Origin: a virus
Lineage: Duplodnaviria > Heunggongvirae > Uroviricota > Caudoviricetes
IMG/VR virus record: IMGVR_UViG_2778261461_000002
Location: 1-45,970 of that record
DNA: 45,970 nt
Direction: 5' to 3' (one strand)
Under the pieces are notes generated by a model that made no database searches, was not told the origin of the DNA, and worked only from the letters and a program-made list of their open reading frames with translations. Positions 6,559-25,866 of the stretch are shown here, piece by piece; within the stretch, counting starts at the first letter, position 1, and every line of letters begins with the position of its first letter. The position numbers and the translations under genes were made by a program.

Positions 6559-7059
6559 CTACTGGAGATAGCGGAGGCCCGGGAAGACAGGAAGCGTGTA
6601 ACGATAGCGCGGCCATGCGGTTTTCAGGATATTCAGGAACCCCGCAGTGATCTGAACCTCTGTCGCGTTCCAATATCCGTCTTTGATCTGCAAGACAATC
6701 GGAGGCGACGCGGGGGAGCTCAGGTCGGTCGATATGTACTGTCGCATTACCAGCGTGCCGTTGTTCAGGTTAGCCAGGGCGTTCCGTATTGCCGTGGAAA
6801 CGATGCCGTCTATGTTGCTAACGGCGAATTGCAGATCCTGCGTGCCGTCTTTATTCCTCGCCGGTAGCGCGATAGCCATGGCCGCCGCCAGGAACGTCAC
6901 TGTCTCCCCCTTCTCCGTAACAGCGGTGATGTCTTCGAAGTTCTCGACCAGGCAGTAACTCTGGCTTCCGACGTTAATCTGCAGCGTATTGAGGATGATT
7001 TCACTACCATCACTGGTGTAAAGCCTGTTTAAGATTGCGCTGGTCATGCCTCTGGCCAC
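6559..7059 (-). CDS. minor tail protein (gpL-position)
   Basis: 166 aa; gene order TMP - two small tail genes - NlpC/P60 - J-like. Confidence 0.45.
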   Translation of the reverse strand: MARGMTSAILNRLYTSDGSEIILNTLQINVGSQSYCLVENFEDITAVTEKGETVTFLAAAMAIALPARNKDGTQDLQFAVSNIDGIVSTAIRNALANLNNGTLVMRQYISTDLSSPASPPIVLQIKDGYWNATEVQITAGFLNILKTAWPRYRYTLPVFPGLRYLQ

Positions 7060-17781: not shown

Positions 17782-19164
17782 TTACTCCGGCATTTCGCTG
17801 ACTGACTGGTTATTGGTAGCCTGGCGGAATGCACCATTCAGGCCGGTTGAGGTCTGGCACTGAGCAAACAGCTCTTTCAGCGGCTCGCCGTCCAGCGCGT
17901 TCACGGCGACATCGGTCATGCCGAACTTGGCTTTCACCGCCGCACGCATGTTGCTTTTCTCACCTTCAGCGTTGGCGTTGATCTGGCTGTTCAGGGCTGT
18001 CACCTGCTCGGTAAGCACCTTGGCCCAGGCAGGCATTTCTTCGTTGTTGGCGGCCGGCTCTTTCTTTTTCGACTTGCCAGCATCATCGATGTCATCGCCA
18101 CCGTCTTTTTTGTCGTCAGAAGCAGACTTCTTCATCTGCTCGTTATAGGCATCCCAGACCTGATCGTCGGTCAGCCCCTCGGTTGTTACGCCTGCGGCAT
18201 TGAGCGCGGCGATCATCTTCTGTTTCATCGGGTTTTGTTCTCCGTTGGTTTTGACTTCGTACTCAGTGGGTTTGCGCACGACTTCGACTGCATCGCCGAC
18301 CAGCGTCACTGTGCTGTCGTCGATGAGGTATTTTTGCTGGAAGAGTTTCGACCCCTCTTCGTAAATGAATTTGTCCGGCCAGACGGTCACCACATAGCGA
18401 TAAACATCACTGCCGGACGGCGCGCGGATGGCCTCACGCAGCATCTGGTAGATTTCGTCGAAGGAGGCGTCGGAGTTGTGGGTGAGGAAGAACTTCACCT
18501 TATTCACCAGTCCGTCTTTGAGGCTGTTTGCCGCGTCGATGAGGCTGGCAGTTTCGACCTCACCTTCCTGACCGTCAGCGTTCACGAACATGCCGACGCC
18601 CTCTTCCGGCGTTCCGGCTCCCGGTTCATCCAGCAGGATGGCAATGTGGTCGAACTGCATGTTGCGGGCGATCCAGGTGTACTTTTTCTCCTTCGACTCG
18701 CCCGACTTCTTCTCTTTGTTGGTGAGCAGCCCGGTTGAGAGGTGAATCGGGTCGGTGTTGGTGCCGGCGATCATCTCGTCGAGGCGGTTAATCAGGCGCT
18801 TGCCATCAGGCTTCGTCTCAGCAACAGCCTTGTTGATGTAAACGTCCATGACGACCTGATCGCCGGATTTGCTGACGTTTTGCGCCCAAGCACCAACGTG
18901 ATAAGCGTTAATGGCGCGCGGATCATTGGCGCTGACATACTTGCCATCTACCATCGGGTGCGGAAGCGGCATCAGCTTGCCTTCCATCGTCTGGTAGCTG
19001 TTGTTAATTTCCTCCGCCGGATACAGGCCACCATTCATCACGATGTCATCGACGATCGGAACCGCACCACGAATGACGTAGTGCTCCTGGCCGTTGATGG
19101 TGGTCGTTGAAATGTTGGAGGCATTGATGGCGAGGGATTTAACGTGGATGCTGGATAGCTTCAC
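17782..19164 (-). CDS. prohead protease / scaffolding-like protein
   Basis: 460 aa; highly charged Lys/Asp/Glu-rich C-terminal half typical of scaffolds; position upstream of capsid gene. Confidence 0.45.
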   Translation of the reverse strand: MKLSSIHVKSLAINASNISTTTINGQEHYVIRGAVPIVDDIVMNGGLYPAEEINNSYQTMEGKLMPLPHPMVDGKYVSANDPRAINAYHVGAWAQNVSKSGDQVVMDVYINKAVAETKPDGKRLINRLDEMIAGTNTDPIHLSTGLLTNKEKKSGESKEKKYTWIARNMQFDHIAILLDEPGAGTPEEGVGMFVNADGQEGEVETASLIDAANSLKDGLVNKVKFFLTHNSDASFDEIYQMLREAIRAPSGSDVYRYVVTVWPDKFIYEEGSKLFQQKYLIDDSTVTLVGDAVEVVRKPTEYEVKTNGEQNPMKQKMIAALNAAGVTTEGLTDDQVWDAYNEQMKKSASDDKKDGGDDIDDAGKSKKKEPAANNEEMPAWAKVLTEQVTALNSQINANAEGEKSNMRAAVKAKFGMTDVAVNALDGEPLKELFAQCQTSTGLNGAFRQATNNQSVSEMPE

Positions 19165-19192
19165 GTTGCGTCCTCATTGGTGGATTTCAGGC

Positions 19193-19219
19193 AATAAAAA
19201 AGGCCGCCGTGGCGACCTT
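19193..19219 (-). terminator. rho-independent terminator after 243-aa moron gene
   Basis: minus-strand hairpin ggtcgcc-acg-gcggcc followed by U7. Confidence 0.5.
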
Positions 19220-19223
19220 ATAA

Positions 19224-19955
19224 TTAATTGTTCAAATCAAGTTTTATCATCTCATTGAATTCGCGCGTATTTCCTATCTTTAGAATATCACCTATGTAGC
19301 CGATATCCAGAGTGAATGGCTCTCCATCCGGTGATGCTCGGTATATAGCGATGCGATATTCGTTTTGATGACTGTACGAACTACGTTTATTGAACACAGA
19401 TGCGAGCGAAAACTGGTCGAATTTAAGTGTCTCTTTTTCATCAAAATAAACGATAGGTTCACATCGATAGGCCAACACTTCACCAGAGGCAACCAAAGTA
19501 TCTAGCTTTTTGATAACTCTGGACATAAATTCAGCCTCATCCCACACAAGCGCAAAATACTGTCCGAGGTTTTCTGCTTCTGGGGGTAACTTGTAATAGC
19601 CATTTAACTTATCGACCTCATATTCATAAAATGGCCGAGCAAGAATTCCATGAGAATGAAGATGGGTCATACAGAAGACGTTAATGTTATCGACCCAGTC
19701 CATTTTTATGGTTATTGGGCCAGCGAAATCAGCTTGAGTGAGGATGATTTCTTCTCCAGGCAAACCGATCTTCAAGATATGCTCATCCGGCTGTAGCCAG
19801 CCACTAACTCCTTCATGTTTGTCGGCAACATTGTTGTCGCTTTCATCCTCAACTTTAATGAAGTAGCTGAGGGGATTCATGTAAAGTTGGCCGTTAATGA
19901 ACCCCTCACGAAAGCTGTCTTGAGAAAACAGCTTCACAAAAAATCTGTAATCCAT
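19224..19955 (-). CDS. hypothetical moron protein (243 aa), AT-rich
   Basis: complete ORF with its own downstream terminator, inserted between head morphogenesis and scaffold genes; C-terminal RSSYSH resembles an Rx4H motif. Confidence 0.5.
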   Translation of the reverse strand: MDYRFFVKLFSQDSFREGFINGQLYMNPLSYFIKVEDESDNNVADKHEGVSGWLQPDEHILKIGLPGEEIILTQADFAGPITIKMDWVDNINVFCMTHLHSHGILARPFYEYEVDKLNGYYKLPPEAENLGQYFALVWDEAEFMSRVIKKLDTLVASGEVLAYRCEPIVYFDEKETLKFDQFSLASVFNKRSSYSHQNEYRIAIYRASPDGEPFTLDIGYIGDILKIGNTREFNEMIKLDLNN

Positions 19956-19997
19956 AATCCCTCACATTACGTTTGCATGTGGGTGGATTTATAAAGC

Positions 19998-20930
19998 TTA
20001 TTCGTTCTTCACAACAGCCTTCTGCCAAATCTTTTTTTCCAACGCCAACTTATCCGTCAACCCTTCGTTGAATATGCTGCCGTCGTCATTGAGCAGCACC
20101 GGGATCTGGCTGCAGTAGCAGTTGTACCGGTTGCCGTTCACGGCGTAGAAGTCGCGCACCTCTTCGGTGGTGTAGACCTTGCCGTGACGGCTGGCGTGCC
20201 AGGTGCGCGTTGTCGGCTTGAGTGCTGACAGCCACAGCAAGCCGGTATTTAGCCCCAGCCGGTCAGCAGCCCAATCCGTTTCGTTCCACTGAGCCTGCCG
20301 CAGCGCGCCGACCTGTTCGGTCTGGGCAATATTCTTCGCGCGAGACATACTGACATCGAGGCGCTTACTGATGACGCTGGCAGTTTCCCTCGGGTTAACC
20401 CCGCGTGCCACCGCGTCGGTGATGATGCCTGTCAGGTCTGCCCGGGCGGCATCGCTGATCGCCTTCCAGTCGCTGAATGTTGTCAGCCTGGCGGAGGCAA
20501 TCTGGTTTTGATAACCGGGGCTGCTTAGAAGCTGCTGTAGCGTCGTCTGGCTGGCGTACACCTGTGACTGCTGCGAGAGGTTGTTGAAGGCTTCTAACGT
20601 CCCTCTCCGCGCTTCTGCGACGACGTAATCCATCGCCCACTGGTTCTGCTCGCCCCCTTCCAGCAGATAATCATCCAGGATGGCCTGCACCGCCTCGAGC
20701 AGCTCAGCCAGTTCCTGCGGGGTCATGTCATAGATGAACTTCCCGGCGTTGACCTGGTAGAGCCTCTGGTCATCACCGTTGACGTGACACAGGAAGTGCC
20801 AGCTGTGGCTGTTAACCTCGCGCTCCAGCCCGGTCAGGCGCTGGTCGAACAGGGCTTTCAGGGCAACCTTAATCGCGTAATACCGGTCCTCGATATCGCG
20901 TTCCATCCTGCTGACTGGTTTGCGCGACAT
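19998..20930 (-). CDS. head morphogenesis protein (Mu F / SPP1 gp7-like)
   Basis: position directly after portal; start adjusted to ATG at 20930 (MSRKPVSRMERD) to avoid the 170-nt overlap with portal in the ORF track. Confidence 0.6.
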   Translation of the reverse strand: MSRKPVSRMERDIEDRYYAIKVALKALFDQRLTGLEREVNSHSWHFLCHVNGDDQRLYQVNAGKFIYDMTPQELAELLEAVQAILDDYLLEGGEQNQWAMDYVVAEARRGTLEAFNNLSQQSQVYASQTTLQQLLSSPGYQNQIASARLTTFSDWKAISDAARADLTGIITDAVARGVNPRETASVISKRLDVSMSRAKNIAQTEQVGALRQAQWNETDWAADRLGLNTGLLWLSALKPTTRTWHASRHGKVYTTEEVRDFYAVNGNRYNCYCSQIPVLLNDDGSIFNEGLTDKLALEKKIWQKAVVKNE

Positions 20931-24368: not shown

Positions 24369-25007
24369 TTAAGCCAGTTTCAGCATGCACGTTCCGCATG
24401 ATCTGGCGATATCGATGTGAGCCACTTCCGCTGGCGCATTGGCCGCGTCCACCAGATCCTGCACTTCTTTGCTGGCACCGTAACGGCGTACGATACCAAC
24501 GAACTCTTCGACGTCGTGGCCACGCAGTGTAAGCACTGGCTGCCCGGTCTCTTTGTTGAACTTTGGCGCGCCGAAATCATCGGTGGCCTGAGAGATGTGG
24601 TAAAGCTCATGCTCCACCAGCGCGCAAAACTCAAGGTCACTGCATTGGGAGCAATAATCGGCAGCCAGCGTGATGATGTACTTCGGGACGCGCCCAAACC
24701 ATTCATGCATCTGCTGTTCCATCCGGGCTTTCTGCCACCCGCCAGCACGCAGCATCACCTGCTCAGCCTGACCGAGCACATAGCGTCCCTTCTTTGCGAA
24801 CGAATCTGATGCCCACATGAAGCAGAGATCCGCATCAATCAGGTGGGCATGGTCTGGATTGTGGATGTTGCCGGTATCGCTGAGGATTTGGCGATTTACC
24901 CACTCGTTCACTTCGGTAGCGGGGATAAGTCTGGTATAGGGATGCCAGTTCTCCGCGCTAATGAAGTTAACCGGTGGGTATGGCCTGCGCTCGTCATCGA
25001 TCGGCAT
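24369..25007 (-). CDS. HExxH zinc metallopeptidase-like protein (SprT-like motif HELYH)
   Basis: 212 aa; ALVEHELYHI motif; backbone-like GC composition. Confidence 0.45.
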   Translation of the reverse strand: MPIDDERRPYPPVNFISAENWHPYTRLIPATEVNEWVNRQILSDTGNIHNPDHAHLIDADLCFMWASDSFAKKGRYVLGQAEQVMLRAGGWQKARMEQQMHEWFGRVPKYIITLAADYCSQCSDLEFCALVEHELYHISQATDDFGAPKFNKETGQPVLTLRGHDVEEFVGIVRRYGASKEVQDLVDAANAPAEVAHIDIARSCGTCMLKLA

Positions 25008-25131: not shown

Positions 25132-25866
25132 TTATTCAGCTTTGAGCGTAGCAATTGCATCAATAATGGGCTGTATAGGGAAACCGATACCTATGCCAGG
25201 ATTTGCATTAGACTCCAGAATTTTGACTATTGTAGCCAGTGACTCTGCATAAAGTGAGTTAACCCTCGCGAAATCCACACCACCGAAGCTTACATTCACT
25301 TGCATGTTCCCAATTTCTATCAAAAGTCTTTTGGATCTTTCAGCAATAGCATCAGCCTCAACTTTTCCCGGGTATCTTCTTTCGGTGACGATACCAACCA
25401 CATCCCCTGACTCTAATTCAATAATGGGGCCTCCGGAATTGCCACCGTTTACCATTCCATCGATAGCAAACTTGCCGTCCTCCATTGGGGCTGAAATTAT
25501 GGCTTCACTTGTTAACAAATCAGATAAACCATGCGGATAGCCTGCAAAAATCAAACGCTTTCCCCTTGTTGGGGTGAAGTTGGGTGAAGGCTGCAAAACA
25601 ACCCTTCCCGCTGGCAGTGCTTCTGAAAGTTGCATGACCGCAATGTCGTTTTCGATGTCAACACGTTGAATCTGAGCTTGTAAGCTCTGATGAGATTCAG
25701 TGAGCAAAGTGACTGGACCGCGAGTGCTGCTAGTTGCTATATCAACCAATGATTTTATTACATGCCAATTTGTAATAACTAAATCATCCCTCAGGAAACT
25801 AAAACCACTGCCGCGAGACTGCCCTGCAATGACTTGAAAAGTTGCGTTGGCTAAAGTTTGATGCAT
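25132..25866 (-). CDS. trypsin-like (S1/Trypsin_2-type) serine protease, no signal peptide
   Basis: 244 aa; catalytic triad contexts TNWHV (His), ENDIAV (Asp), GNSGGP (Ser); AT-rich gene. Confidence 0.75.
   Translation of the reverse strand: MHQTLANATFQVIAGQSRGSGFSFLRDDLVITNWHVIKSLVDIATSSTRGPVTLLTESHQSLQAQIQRVDIENDIAVMQLSEALPAGRVVLQPSPNFTPTRGKRLIFAGYPHGLSDLLTSEAIISAPMEDGKFAIDGMVNGGNSGGPIIELESGDVVGIVTERRYPGKVEADAIAERSKRLLIEIGNMQVNVSFGGVDFARVNSLYAESLATIVKILESNANPGIGIGFPIQPIIDAIATLKAE

What the first reader, a model, noticed from the sequence alone, without database searches (positions are those of the whole stretch)
19193..19955. Single-gene moron inserted between head morphogenesis and scaffold genes
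A 243-aa ORF with noticeably lower GC than the flanking head genes, followed by its own hairpin/U7 terminator, interrupts the otherwise tightly packed portal - minor head - scaffold - capsid series. The protein has no recognisable phage structural features; the C-terminal RSSYSH fits an Rx4H pattern of the type found in HEPN RNases, but this is only a motif-level hint.
Basis: partly seen in the sequence, partly recalled or inferred. Interest (0 to 1): 0.55.

Follow-up and report, generated by a model that had tools for sequence, protein, structure and literature searches.

The report
Prophage moron encoding ART-like protein
A foreign, low-GC gene with its own terminator sits in a swap-prone slot between two head genes of an E. 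coli prophage; its protein is not a HEPN RNase but belongs to a large unnamed family that resembles distant ADP-ribosyltransferase-type abortive-infection proteins, which makes it a plausible but untested anti-phage gene.

Summary
A 243-aa ORF (19224-19955, minus strand) has GC 0.41, against 0.56-0.59 in the flanking head genes. A hairpin and T-tract follow it, and it lies between the Mu-F-like head gene and the DUF2213 scaffold-like gene.

The moron reading is supported. In 78 close relatives this junction measures 8 to 1463 bp and holds at least 25 unrelated low-GC ORF types. Only 4 of the 78 carry this gene. The cassette is more conserved than its flanks (98% against 84% and 68%), and diverged cassettes keep a terminator with different stems.

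The HEPN hint is rejected. The model is alpha/beta, and R191 and H196 are conserved in only about 40% of relatives.

Relatives also sit downstream of CI repressors, on plasmids and ICEs, and in defence islands. My best reading is a single-gene abortive-infection candidate like Aristaios. This is untested.

The parts
19224..19955 (-). 243-aa ORF, the cargo gene. It belongs to a large unnamed family (phrog_26561) with candidate ART-like catalytic residues K8, C95-M96 and Q197-x-E199, plus invariant D45, E48, Y170, K190 and R201.
19190..19219 (-). Intrinsic-terminator-like hairpin AAGGTCGCC-ACGG-CGGCCTT followed by TTTTATTGCC, starting 4 nt after the stop codon.
   Evidence: Diverged cassettes L021, L026 and L103 keep a hairpin with different stems and the same TTTTTTATTGCC tail.
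19956..19997 (-). 42-nt AT-rich leader between the Mu-F stop codon and the ORF start. It holds a GAGG Shine-Dalgarno at 19963..19960 and a -10-like TATAAA at 19993..19988.
   Evidence: The scan called no promoter. TTTATAAATC recurs upstream of the 61%-identical allele.
20009..20014 (-). Weak -35-like TTGTGA inside the 3' end of the Mu-F gene, 15 nt upstream of TATAAA. This is a candidate only.
   Evidence: It is below the thresholds of the scan.
19165..19192 (-). GCCTGAAATCCACCAATGAGGACGCAAC: a relic copy of the ancestral Mu-F end and junction. It supplies the ribosome-binding site of the scaffold gene and marks the 3' edge of the inserted cassette.
   Evidence: Empty loci read ...GCAGCCTGAAAATCAGAGGACGCAAC-GTG, and L044 reads GCCTAAACCCACCAATGAGG.
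19998..20906 (-). Upstream flank: Mu-F-like head morphogenesis (minor head) gene. This is context, not cargo.
17782..19164 (-). Downstream flank: DUF2213 scaffold/protease-like gene with a GTG start. This is context, not cargo.

Best explanation
The region is a self-contained accessory cassette, a moron: leader, one gene and a terminator. It was dropped by recombination into a hypervariable cargo slot between the Mu-F-like head gene and the scaffold gene of a lambdoid E. coli prophage.

The product is a single-domain alpha/beta protein of a large, unnamed, mobile-element-borne family. I read it as a divergent ADP-ribosyltransferase-fold protein. It is a remote relative of DUF2971 (the domain of the validated lactococcal abortive-infection protein Aristaios) and of AbiGi. 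Its proposed active-site triad is K8 / C95-M96 / Q197-x-E199, the same triad published for the bioinformatically defined Lsan_2474 ART-like family.

The most likely role is defence of the lysogen. The protein would be made at a low level in the prophage state, and the terminator would stop those transcripts from running into the head genes. During the phage's own lytic growth, antiterminated late transcription would read through the terminator. When a foreign phage infects, the protein would use NAD+ to ADP-ribosylate a nucleic acid or a transcription or translation component, aborting the infection.

Shown here: the cassette anatomy, the variability of the slot, horizontal transfer, family size, conserved residues, and rejection of HEPN.

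Inferred only: the ART fold assignment (weak but consistent), enzymatic activity, expression in the lysogen, and the anti-phage role.
For: Cassette and hotspot:
- The junction measures 8-1463 bp in 78 relatives whose Mu-F is at least 87% identical. Five are empty, 4 carry this gene, and the rest carry at least 25 other ORF clusters with GC 0.35-0.50.
- Deposited Klebsiella phages and E. coli genomes hold other genes or nothing at this site.
- The cassette is 98.2% identical in L060, while Mu-F is 84.5% and the scaffold gene 67.6% identical.
- A relic of the junction lies at the 3' edge.
- The terminator is retained with different stems in alleles that are 36-39% identical.

Family:
- 2058 cluster representatives at 50% identity match at E<=1e-3, nearly all 220-260 aa.
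- No Pfam or NCBIfam family matches, and every source calls the protein hypothetical.

ART link:
- The AF2 model has pLDDT 83.4 and pTM 0.80.
- 14 of 150 relatives give sub-threshold DUF2971 hits, while no other Pfam family recurs more than twice.
- 11, 9 and 6 relatives hit three PDC-S31 models of PADLOC.
- DUF2971 is predicted to be ART-like and related to AbiGi and DarT, and the Lsan_2474 family has motifs Kxx / [CS]Mx / QxE (PMC12522546).
- This family has K8 at 92% (R 6%), C95 at 98% (S 2%), M/L96, Q197 at 94% and E199 at 99%.
- Aristaios is a single-gene DUF2971 Abi system (PMC11381338 and PMC13064643).

Context:
- Homologues lie directly downstream of and co-directional with CI repressor genes in P2-like prophages.
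- Others lie beside a type II RM system on a Pseudomonas plasmid, beside a Gabija-like pair, and inside an island rich in TIR and ThsB genes.
- Others are lone cargo in ICEs, and one is retained in a decayed prophage remnant.
- Neighbours in six GTDB loci include methyltransferases of RM systems, PD-T4-6, MADS and PDC-M09B hits.

Precedent: late-operon morons that defend the lysogen include Tab, HK97 gp15 and Tai.
Against: - The query itself has no DUF2971 hit, and its PDC-S31 hit has E=0.02.
- Family consensus sequences did not hit DUF2971.
- PDC-S31 is itself only a candidate system.
- The match to Lsan_2474 rests on motifs and taxa only. The Lsan_2474 sequence could not be obtained.
- No promoter was detected. 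The gene might therefore be expressed only with the late operon, during lytic growth.
- There is no partner antitoxin or immunity gene in the cassette, so an active toxin would need another form of control.
- The defence-island association is anecdotal, covering about 15 contexts without a control.
- The authors of the Legionella survey predict secreted effectors for Lsan_2474, not defence.
- tblastn finds no homologue in 50,697 deposited phage genomes.
Confidence: 0.5

Rival explanations
1. A phage-benefit effector of the lytic cycle. The ART-like protein would be made with the head proteins from the late operon. It would modify host or competitor targets, as T4 Alt, ModA and ModB do, or act as an anti-defence factor. 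It might be packaged in the capsid and injected.
For: The gene is co-directional with the late head genes and tightly spaced among them, and no promoter of its own was detected. 18 of 33 phage-borne relatives sit at this same head-module junction. T4 Alt is a precedent for a head-packaged ART (my own knowledge).
Against: Relatives occur where no virion exists: on plasmids, in ICEs, in defence islands and downstream of CI repressors. The conserved terminator is pointless for a purely late-transcribed gene. Most close relatives lack the gene. One copy persists in a decayed prophage.
Confidence: 0.17
2. A lysogenic-conversion toxin or effector that serves the host bacterium against other cells, in bacterial competition or virulence, rather than against phages.
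For: The same slot carries Rap1a T6SS-immunity genes in other prophages. The Legionella survey predicts that about 78% of Lsan_2474-family proteins are effectors. A PAAR protein lies about 4 kb from the Photobacterium homologue.
Against: The protein is a single domain of about 240 aa, and Pfam detects no added delivery domain such as PAAR or Rhs. There is no adjacent immunity gene. The neighbours are mostly RM and defence genes. The authors themselves warn that effector prediction over-calls.
Confidence: 0.1
3. A HEPN-type RNase, toxin or Abi, that acts through the Rx4H motif RSSYSH.
For: R191-x4-H196 is present in this sequence.
Confidence: 0.02
4. An accessory virion or head-assembly protein, such as a decoration, internal or chaperone protein, specific to a subset of these phages.
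For: It lies within the head module and is recurrently associated with this junction.
Confidence: 0.04

Closest known systems
Aristaios (Lactococcus plasmid pUCCL641, 316 aa, DUF2971/PF11185): a validated single-gene abortive-infection system
   Different: The query does not reach the Pfam DUF2971 threshold, and indeed has no hit at all. It has QxE rather than ExE. It is shorter (243 aa). It has extra invariants D45, E48 and C95. It sits in a prophage head-module slot in Enterobacteria. No phenotype is known.
Lsan_2474 ART-like family (Legionella ART survey, BMC Genomics 2025, PMC12522546)
   Same: The published motif triad Kxx / [CS]Mx / QxE (RSE clade, predicted RNA or DNA target) matches K8 / C95-M96 / Q197-x-E199. 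Both are described as distant relatives of AbiGi and DUF2971. Both occur in Pseudomonas syringae-group bacteria, Yersinia and a siphovirus.
   Different: Whether the two families are the same could not be tested, because no Lsan_2474 sequence was available. That paper proposes secreted effectors and gives no phage-moron or defence context. This family appears much larger (2058 clusters at 50% identity against 133 organisms).
DarT (of DarTG) and AbiGi: ART-fold toxins used in phage defence
   Different: There is no DarG- or AbiGii-type partner gene. No sequence-level match was found. Target and activity are unknown.
Classical late-operon morons that protect the lysogen (HK97 gp15, Pseudomonas JBD26 Tab, phi80 Tai)
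   Same: It is an extra gene between conserved late genes, with deviant composition and its own terminator. It is present in some relatives and absent from others.
   Different: The protein family is unrelated to all of these. Its promoter is not demonstrated. The Mu-F-to-scaffold slot did not come up as a described hotspot in the few papers I searched and read.
PADLOC candidate system PDC-S31
   Same: It is a single-gene candidate. 11, 9 and 6 of 150 relatives hit three of its HMMs (best E 1.4e-4). The query hits one model at E=0.02 over the K190..R201 region.
   Different: The matches are weak and partial. PDC-S31 is itself unvalidated, and no paper in the library mentions it.

Membership tests
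Phage moron (Juhala/Hendrix sense) | Present in some genomes and absent from the same site in closely related ones | tested here: met
   4 of 78 relatives carry it, 5 junctions are empty (8-21 bp), and the others hold different cargo. The same holds.
Phage moron (Juhala/Hendrix sense) | Nucleotide composition distinct from the surrounding genes | tested here: met
   GC 0.411 and GC3 0.43, against 0.555-0.585 and 0.69-0.77 in the flanks
Phage moron (Juhala/Hendrix sense) | Own transcription terminator downstream | tested here: met
   A hairpin plus T-tract lies at 19190-19219. Diverged cassettes conserve it with different stems. This is sequence-level evidence only.
Phage moron (Juhala/Hendrix sense) | Own promoter, with expression from the repressed prophage | tested here: inconclusive
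   No sigma-70 site was called on the minus strand. Only weak candidates scoring 7-9 of 12 appear across cassettes. Expression cannot be tested here.
HEPN RNase | Rx4-6H motif conserved across the family | tested here: not met
   R191 is conserved in 42% and H196 in 39% of 165 sequences
HEPN RNase | All-alpha helical-bundle fold | tested here: not met
   The model is alpha/beta with 12 strands, at pLDDT 83
Pfam DUF2971 (PF11185) / Aristaios | Score above the Pfam gathering threshold | tested here: not met
   The query has no hit. 14 of 150 relatives have only sub-threshold hits, best E 0.005. Consensus sequences have no hit.
Pfam DUF2971 (PF11185) / Aristaios | Anti-phage (abortive infection) phenotype | not testable with these tools
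   This needs phage-challenge assays
ADP-ribosyltransferase superfamily | ART core fold | tested here: inconclusive
ADP-ribosyltransferase superfamily | Catalytic triad in order (R/K or H; S-x-S/C-x-S or Y; Q/E-x-E) | tested here: inconclusive
   K8, C95-M96 and Q197-x-E199 are conserved and in the right order. Their structural equivalence to ART motifs I-III was not verified by superposition.
ADP-ribosyltransferase superfamily | NAD+ binding and ADP-ribosyl transfer | not testable with these tools
   This needs biochemistry
Lsan_2474 ART-like family | Motifs Kxx / [CS]Mx / QxE | tested here: met
   K8 92%, C95 98% (S 2%), M96 49% or L 34%, Q197 94%, E199 99%, compared with the table in PMC12522546
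Lsan_2474 ART-like family | Significant sequence similarity to Lsan_2474 itself | not tested
Virion structural / head-assembly protein | Universally present at this position in related phages, or a structural fold | tested here: not met
   presence; fold

The most novel reading that the evidence does not exclude
This gene represents a large family (over 2000 clusters at 50% identity) of stand-alone ADP-ribosyltransferase-fold proteins with a K / C-M / QxE active site. The family is missing from Pfam, NCBIfam and the defence-system catalogues searched here. Its members would act as single-gene abortive-infection systems without an antitoxin. In addition, the Mu-F-to-scaffold junction of these lambdoid prophages would be an undescribed hotspot that stores dozens of further unknown defence or counter-defence genes.
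Probability: 0.35. Interest if true: 0.65.

Novelty: new variant of a known kind. Interest (0 to 1): 0.45.

Why it matters
If the protein is an active ART-type defence, it adds a widespread, uncatalogued single-gene immune family to the bacterial pan-immune system. It would also raise the question of how an ART toxin is kept silent without an antitoxin.

Whatever this one gene does, the junction between the Mu-F-like gene and the scaffold gene behaves as a well-defined cassette-exchange site. It has at least 25 cargo types, nearly all of unknown function. Like the P2/P4 hotspots, it could be mined for new defence, counter-defence or immunity genes in Enterobacteria.

Tried and rejected
- HEPN: rejected on motif conservation and fold.
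- Virion structural fold: Foldseek against the PDB and BFVD gave only noise, with E>=0.04 and TM around 0.1.
- PDB sequence searches with the profiles: nothing meaningful.
- NCBIfam: nothing.
- PHROGs: only families of unknown function, namely phrog_26561, phrog_13198 and phrog_32614.
- Foldseek against AFDB50: the library was not available.
- Reaching DUF2971 by iterated word-indexed searches failed.
- Subfamily consensus sequences did not hit PF11185.
- hhalign of the family profile against a 215-aa cargo ORF that looks AbiGi-like (L065) was not significant, at E 0.11.
- Attempts to obtain the Aristaios or Lsan_2474 sequences from paper supplements failed, so no profile-profile test against DUF2971, AbiGi or Lsan_2474 could be run.
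- Promoter search: the consensus scan was negative, and no clearly conserved -35/-10 pair appeared across 13 diverged cassettes.
- tblastn against deposited phage genomes found no homologue.
- Alignments A3 and A2 were too diverse for the search for related loci. A4 returned only 8 GTDB loci.
- The accession WP_086530041 and the name PDC-S31 appear in no paper of the library.

Full report
**1. What is there**

The minus strand carries a 243-aa ORF at 19224..19955 with an ATG start. A GAGG Shine-Dalgarno precedes it, and a 42-nt AT-rich leader separates it from the stop codon of the upstream gene.

That upstream gene (19998..20906) is a Mu-F-like head morphogenesis / minor head gene (Pfam Phage_Mu_F, phrog_758). 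The downstream gene (17782..19164) is a DUF2213 protein (phrog_760), which lies where a scaffold or prohead protease gene is expected. Terminase and portal genes lie upstream. Decoration-like, major capsid (DUF6260) and tail genes lie downstream, all on the same strand.

Over 18400-20800 the window is identical to a lambdoid prophage of E. coli strain E3.

The ORF has GC 0.411 and GC3 0.43. Its neighbours have GC 0.555-0.585 and GC3 0.69-0.77. The ORF falls in the lowest 0.2% of equal-sized windows.

Four nucleotides after the stop codon lies an 8-bp hairpin with 5 G-C pairs, followed by U6-A-U2 (19219..19190).

Against close alleles dN/dS is 0.13-0.25, so this is a real gene under selection.

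The gene is on the minus strand, and the U-run is not a clean U7.

**2. Is it a moron?**

I fetched 80 IMG/VR contigs whose Mu-F protein is at least 87% identical to this one. Of these, 78 contain both flanking genes.

- The distance from the Mu-F stop to the scaffold start ranges from 8 to 1463 bp.
- Five junctions are empty (8-21 bp).
- Four carry a homologue of this ORF: three at 98% identity or more and one at 36%.
- The rest carry ORFs that fall into at least 25 unrelated clusters.
- The cargo segments are almost always low in GC, at 0.35-0.50.

Among ten cluster representatives scanned, the only cargo recognised was Rap1a T6SS-immunity proteins, which are often on the opposite strand, and an HNH homing endonuclease.

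Deposited Klebsiella phages and complete E. coli genomes show the same pattern. At this site they hold a 158-aa, a 74-aa or a 66-aa ORF, a Rap1a/Tai gene, or nothing.

The cassette is more conserved than its surroundings. In L060 it is 98.2% identical in DNA, while Mu-F is 84.5% and the scaffold gene 67.6% identical. That is the signature of recent horizontal cassette exchange.

The 3' edge of the cassette carries GCCTGAAATCCACCAATGAGGACGCAAC. This is a relic of the ancestral Mu-F end, spacer and scaffold ribosome-binding site that is seen intact in empty loci.

Cassettes whose proteins are only 36-39% identical (L021, L026, L103) keep a hairpin at the same place. Their stem sequences are entirely different, and all are followed by the same TTTTTTATTGCC tail. 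This argues that the terminator is functional.

The one moron feature I could not confirm is a promoter. The consensus scan finds none on the minus strand. By eye there is only a weak TTGTGA-15-TATAAA that overlaps the Mu-F stop. Thirteen diverged cassettes show only matches scoring 7-9 of 12.

**3. What is the protein?**

Pfam and NCBIfam give nothing. PHROGs places it in phrog_26561, of unknown function. All public copies are named hypothetical.

An exhaustive profile search finds 2058 cluster representatives at 50% identity with E<=1e-3 (717 at 1e-10). Nearly all are 220-260 aa, so this is a large single-domain family.

Across 165 aligned members the following are essentially invariant: K8, G22, D45, E48, C95, G131, F143, Y170, K190, Q197-x-E199-x-R201 and G219.

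However, R191 is conserved in 42% and H196 in 39% of members. The AlphaFold model (pLDDT 83.4, pTM 0.80) is a beta-rich alpha/beta fold, not a helical bundle. HEPN is rejected.

**4. Fold and remote relatives**

Foldseek finds nothing in the PDB or among viral models, so no virion-protein fold is evident.

Independently, when 150 family members are scanned one by one, the only Pfam family that recurs is DUF2971. It is hit by 14 members with best E 0.005, and the next most frequent family has 2 hits. The only recurring PADLOC family is the single-gene candidate PDC-S31, whose models are hit by 11, 9 and 6 members with best E 1.4e-4.

The literature ties these leads together.
- The same Legionella survey lists a further new family, Lsan_2474. 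It describes that family as a distant homologue of AbiGi and DUF2971 with active-site motifs Kxx / [CS]Mx / QxE and a predicted RNA or DNA target. It reports that family in P. syringae, Yersinia and a siphovirus.

That triad is exactly what this family conserves: K8, C95-M96 and Q197-x-E199. This family also occurs in a P. syringae-group plasmid and in Yersinia. I could not obtain the Lsan_2474 sequence, so whether the two families are the same remains a strong lead, not a result.

**5. Context of relatives**

Of 33 IMG/VR contigs that carry a relative, 18 have it at this same Mu-F/scaffold junction. Their alleles are only 36-43% identical to the query. In almost all contigs the gene's GC is 10-20 points below its flanks. 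Searches show the same for E. coli, Enterobacter, Raoultella and Citrobacter prophages.

Other relatives sit in the following places.
- Immediately downstream of, and co-directional with, the CI repressor of P2-like prophages. That position implies expression in the lysogen.
- Between an integrase gene and the HNH and terminase genes of another prophage.
- In a decayed prophage remnant.
- Next to a BsuBI/PstI-type RM system and an AAA ATPase on a Pseudomonas plasmid.
- Near a DUF4238 gene on a Photobacterium plasmid.
- Beside a Gabija-like AAA_15/DUF2813 and UvrD pair.
- Inside an island of four ThsB-TIR genes, a TIR_2 gene, Nmad2, MazG_C and LD_cluster2.
- As lone cargo in conjugative elements.

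Neighbours in six loci from distant phyla include strong PADLOC hits to methyltransferases of RM systems, PD-T4-6, MADS and PDC-M09B. This is qualitative, and I had no control set.

**6. Most likely mechanism**

Shown: this is a mobile one-gene cassette with its own terminator, in a hypervariable slot of the late operon. It encodes a conserved, single-domain protein of a large family borne on mobile elements.

Inferred, in decreasing order of support:
- (a) The fold is a divergent ART core whose catalytic residues are K8 / C95 / Q197-x-E199.
- (b) The gene is transcribed at a low level in the lysogen, and the terminator insulates the head genes. During induction, antiterminated late transcription reads through. 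Relatives encode Q-type antiterminators.
- (c) On infection by another phage, the protein ADP-ribosylates a nucleic acid or a transcription or translation factor and aborts the infection, as proposed for Aristaios and shown for DarT.

There is no partner gene, so control must be intrinsic, either trigger-dependent or specific for a phage target. My overall confidence in this composite reading is about 0.5. Confidence is about 0.9 for the moron and hotspot part, about 0.6 for the ART-like relationship and about 0.5 for defence.

**7. Rivals**

- A late-expressed phage effector, similar to T4 Alt or Mod or acting as an anti-defence factor, would fit the missing promoter and the head-module position. 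It does not fit the non-phage contexts or the conserved terminator.
- A competition or virulence effector is suggested by the Rap1a cargo in the same slot and by the effector predictions of the Legionella paper. However, the protein has no detected delivery domain and no adjacent immunity gene.
- A structural or assembly role is contradicted by the presence/absence pattern.
- HEPN is refuted.

**8. Novelty and verdict**

Morons in late operons that defend the lysogen are known (HK97 gp15, Tab, Tai). So is a single-gene ART-like Abi system (Aristaios).

This gene is not a member of DUF2971 by Pfam's criterion. It belongs to an uncatalogued sister family, possibly the bioinformatically described Lsan_2474. 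I therefore rate it a new variant of a known kind and of moderate interest.

The hotspot itself, with its at least 25 unknown cargo types, may be the more useful lead.

Noticed in passing
window 25132-25866 (-): A second low-GC single gene (GC 0.44, GC3 0.38): a stand-alone trypsin-like S1 peptidase of 244 aa, upstream of the metallopeptidase and small-terminase genes. It matches the protease domains of the PADLOC models RT-Protease_XI (5e-14), Avs1b and LmuA. It is present in some related prophages (L009, L010) and absent from others (L008, L011), so it is probably another moron.
   Followed up: partly
junction equivalent to window 19165-19997; loci L029-L108: The Mu-F-to-scaffold junction is a hypervariable cargo slot. 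Across 78 relatives it measures 8-1463 bp and holds at least 25 unrelated low-GC ORF clusters. Most are of unknown function, and they include Rap1a T6SS-immunity genes on the opposite strand and an HNH homing endonuclease (L040).
   Followed up: partly
L065 1763-3072 and L089 1034-2343: A 215-aa cargo ORF at the same junction carries CFTES and WEREWR motifs that recall AbiGi and DUF2971. Pfam and PADLOC found nothing, and hhalign against the family profile was not significant (E 0.11). It may be a second ART-like cargo type.
   Followed up: partly
L024 6091-8735; L123 6504-8732; L124 1181-3409: In P2-like prophages of Pantoea and in metagenomes, homologues at 43% identity lie downstream of the CI repressor gene in the same orientation, with one or two small unknown ORFs in between. 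L123 has a GmrSD_N gene nearby.
   Followed up: no
window 19165-19192 and 19981-19990: AAATCCACC occurs on both sides of the cassette, just after the Mu-F stop and just before the scaffold ribosome-binding site. The 3' copy continues as a relic of the Mu-F end (GCCTGA). These imperfect direct repeats may be the recombination sites for cassette exchange.
   Followed up: partly
L008-L015, about 6790-6972: In prophages that carry the 96%-identical allele, an extra 60-aa ORF lies between the cassette and a 453-aa scaffold variant. The window has no such ORF.
   Followed up: no
whole window: ARAGORN finds no tRNA in the window, although the E. coli E3 record annotates a tRNA-Arg in the corresponding prophage region. 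The window may therefore differ from E3 outside the 18400-20800 stretch that I compared.
   Followed up: no
window 24369-25007 (-): A putative phage metallopeptidase gene (PF18894, E 2.7e-44) lies directly upstream of the DUF2280 small-terminase-like gene. It is conserved in many relatives.
   Followed up: no
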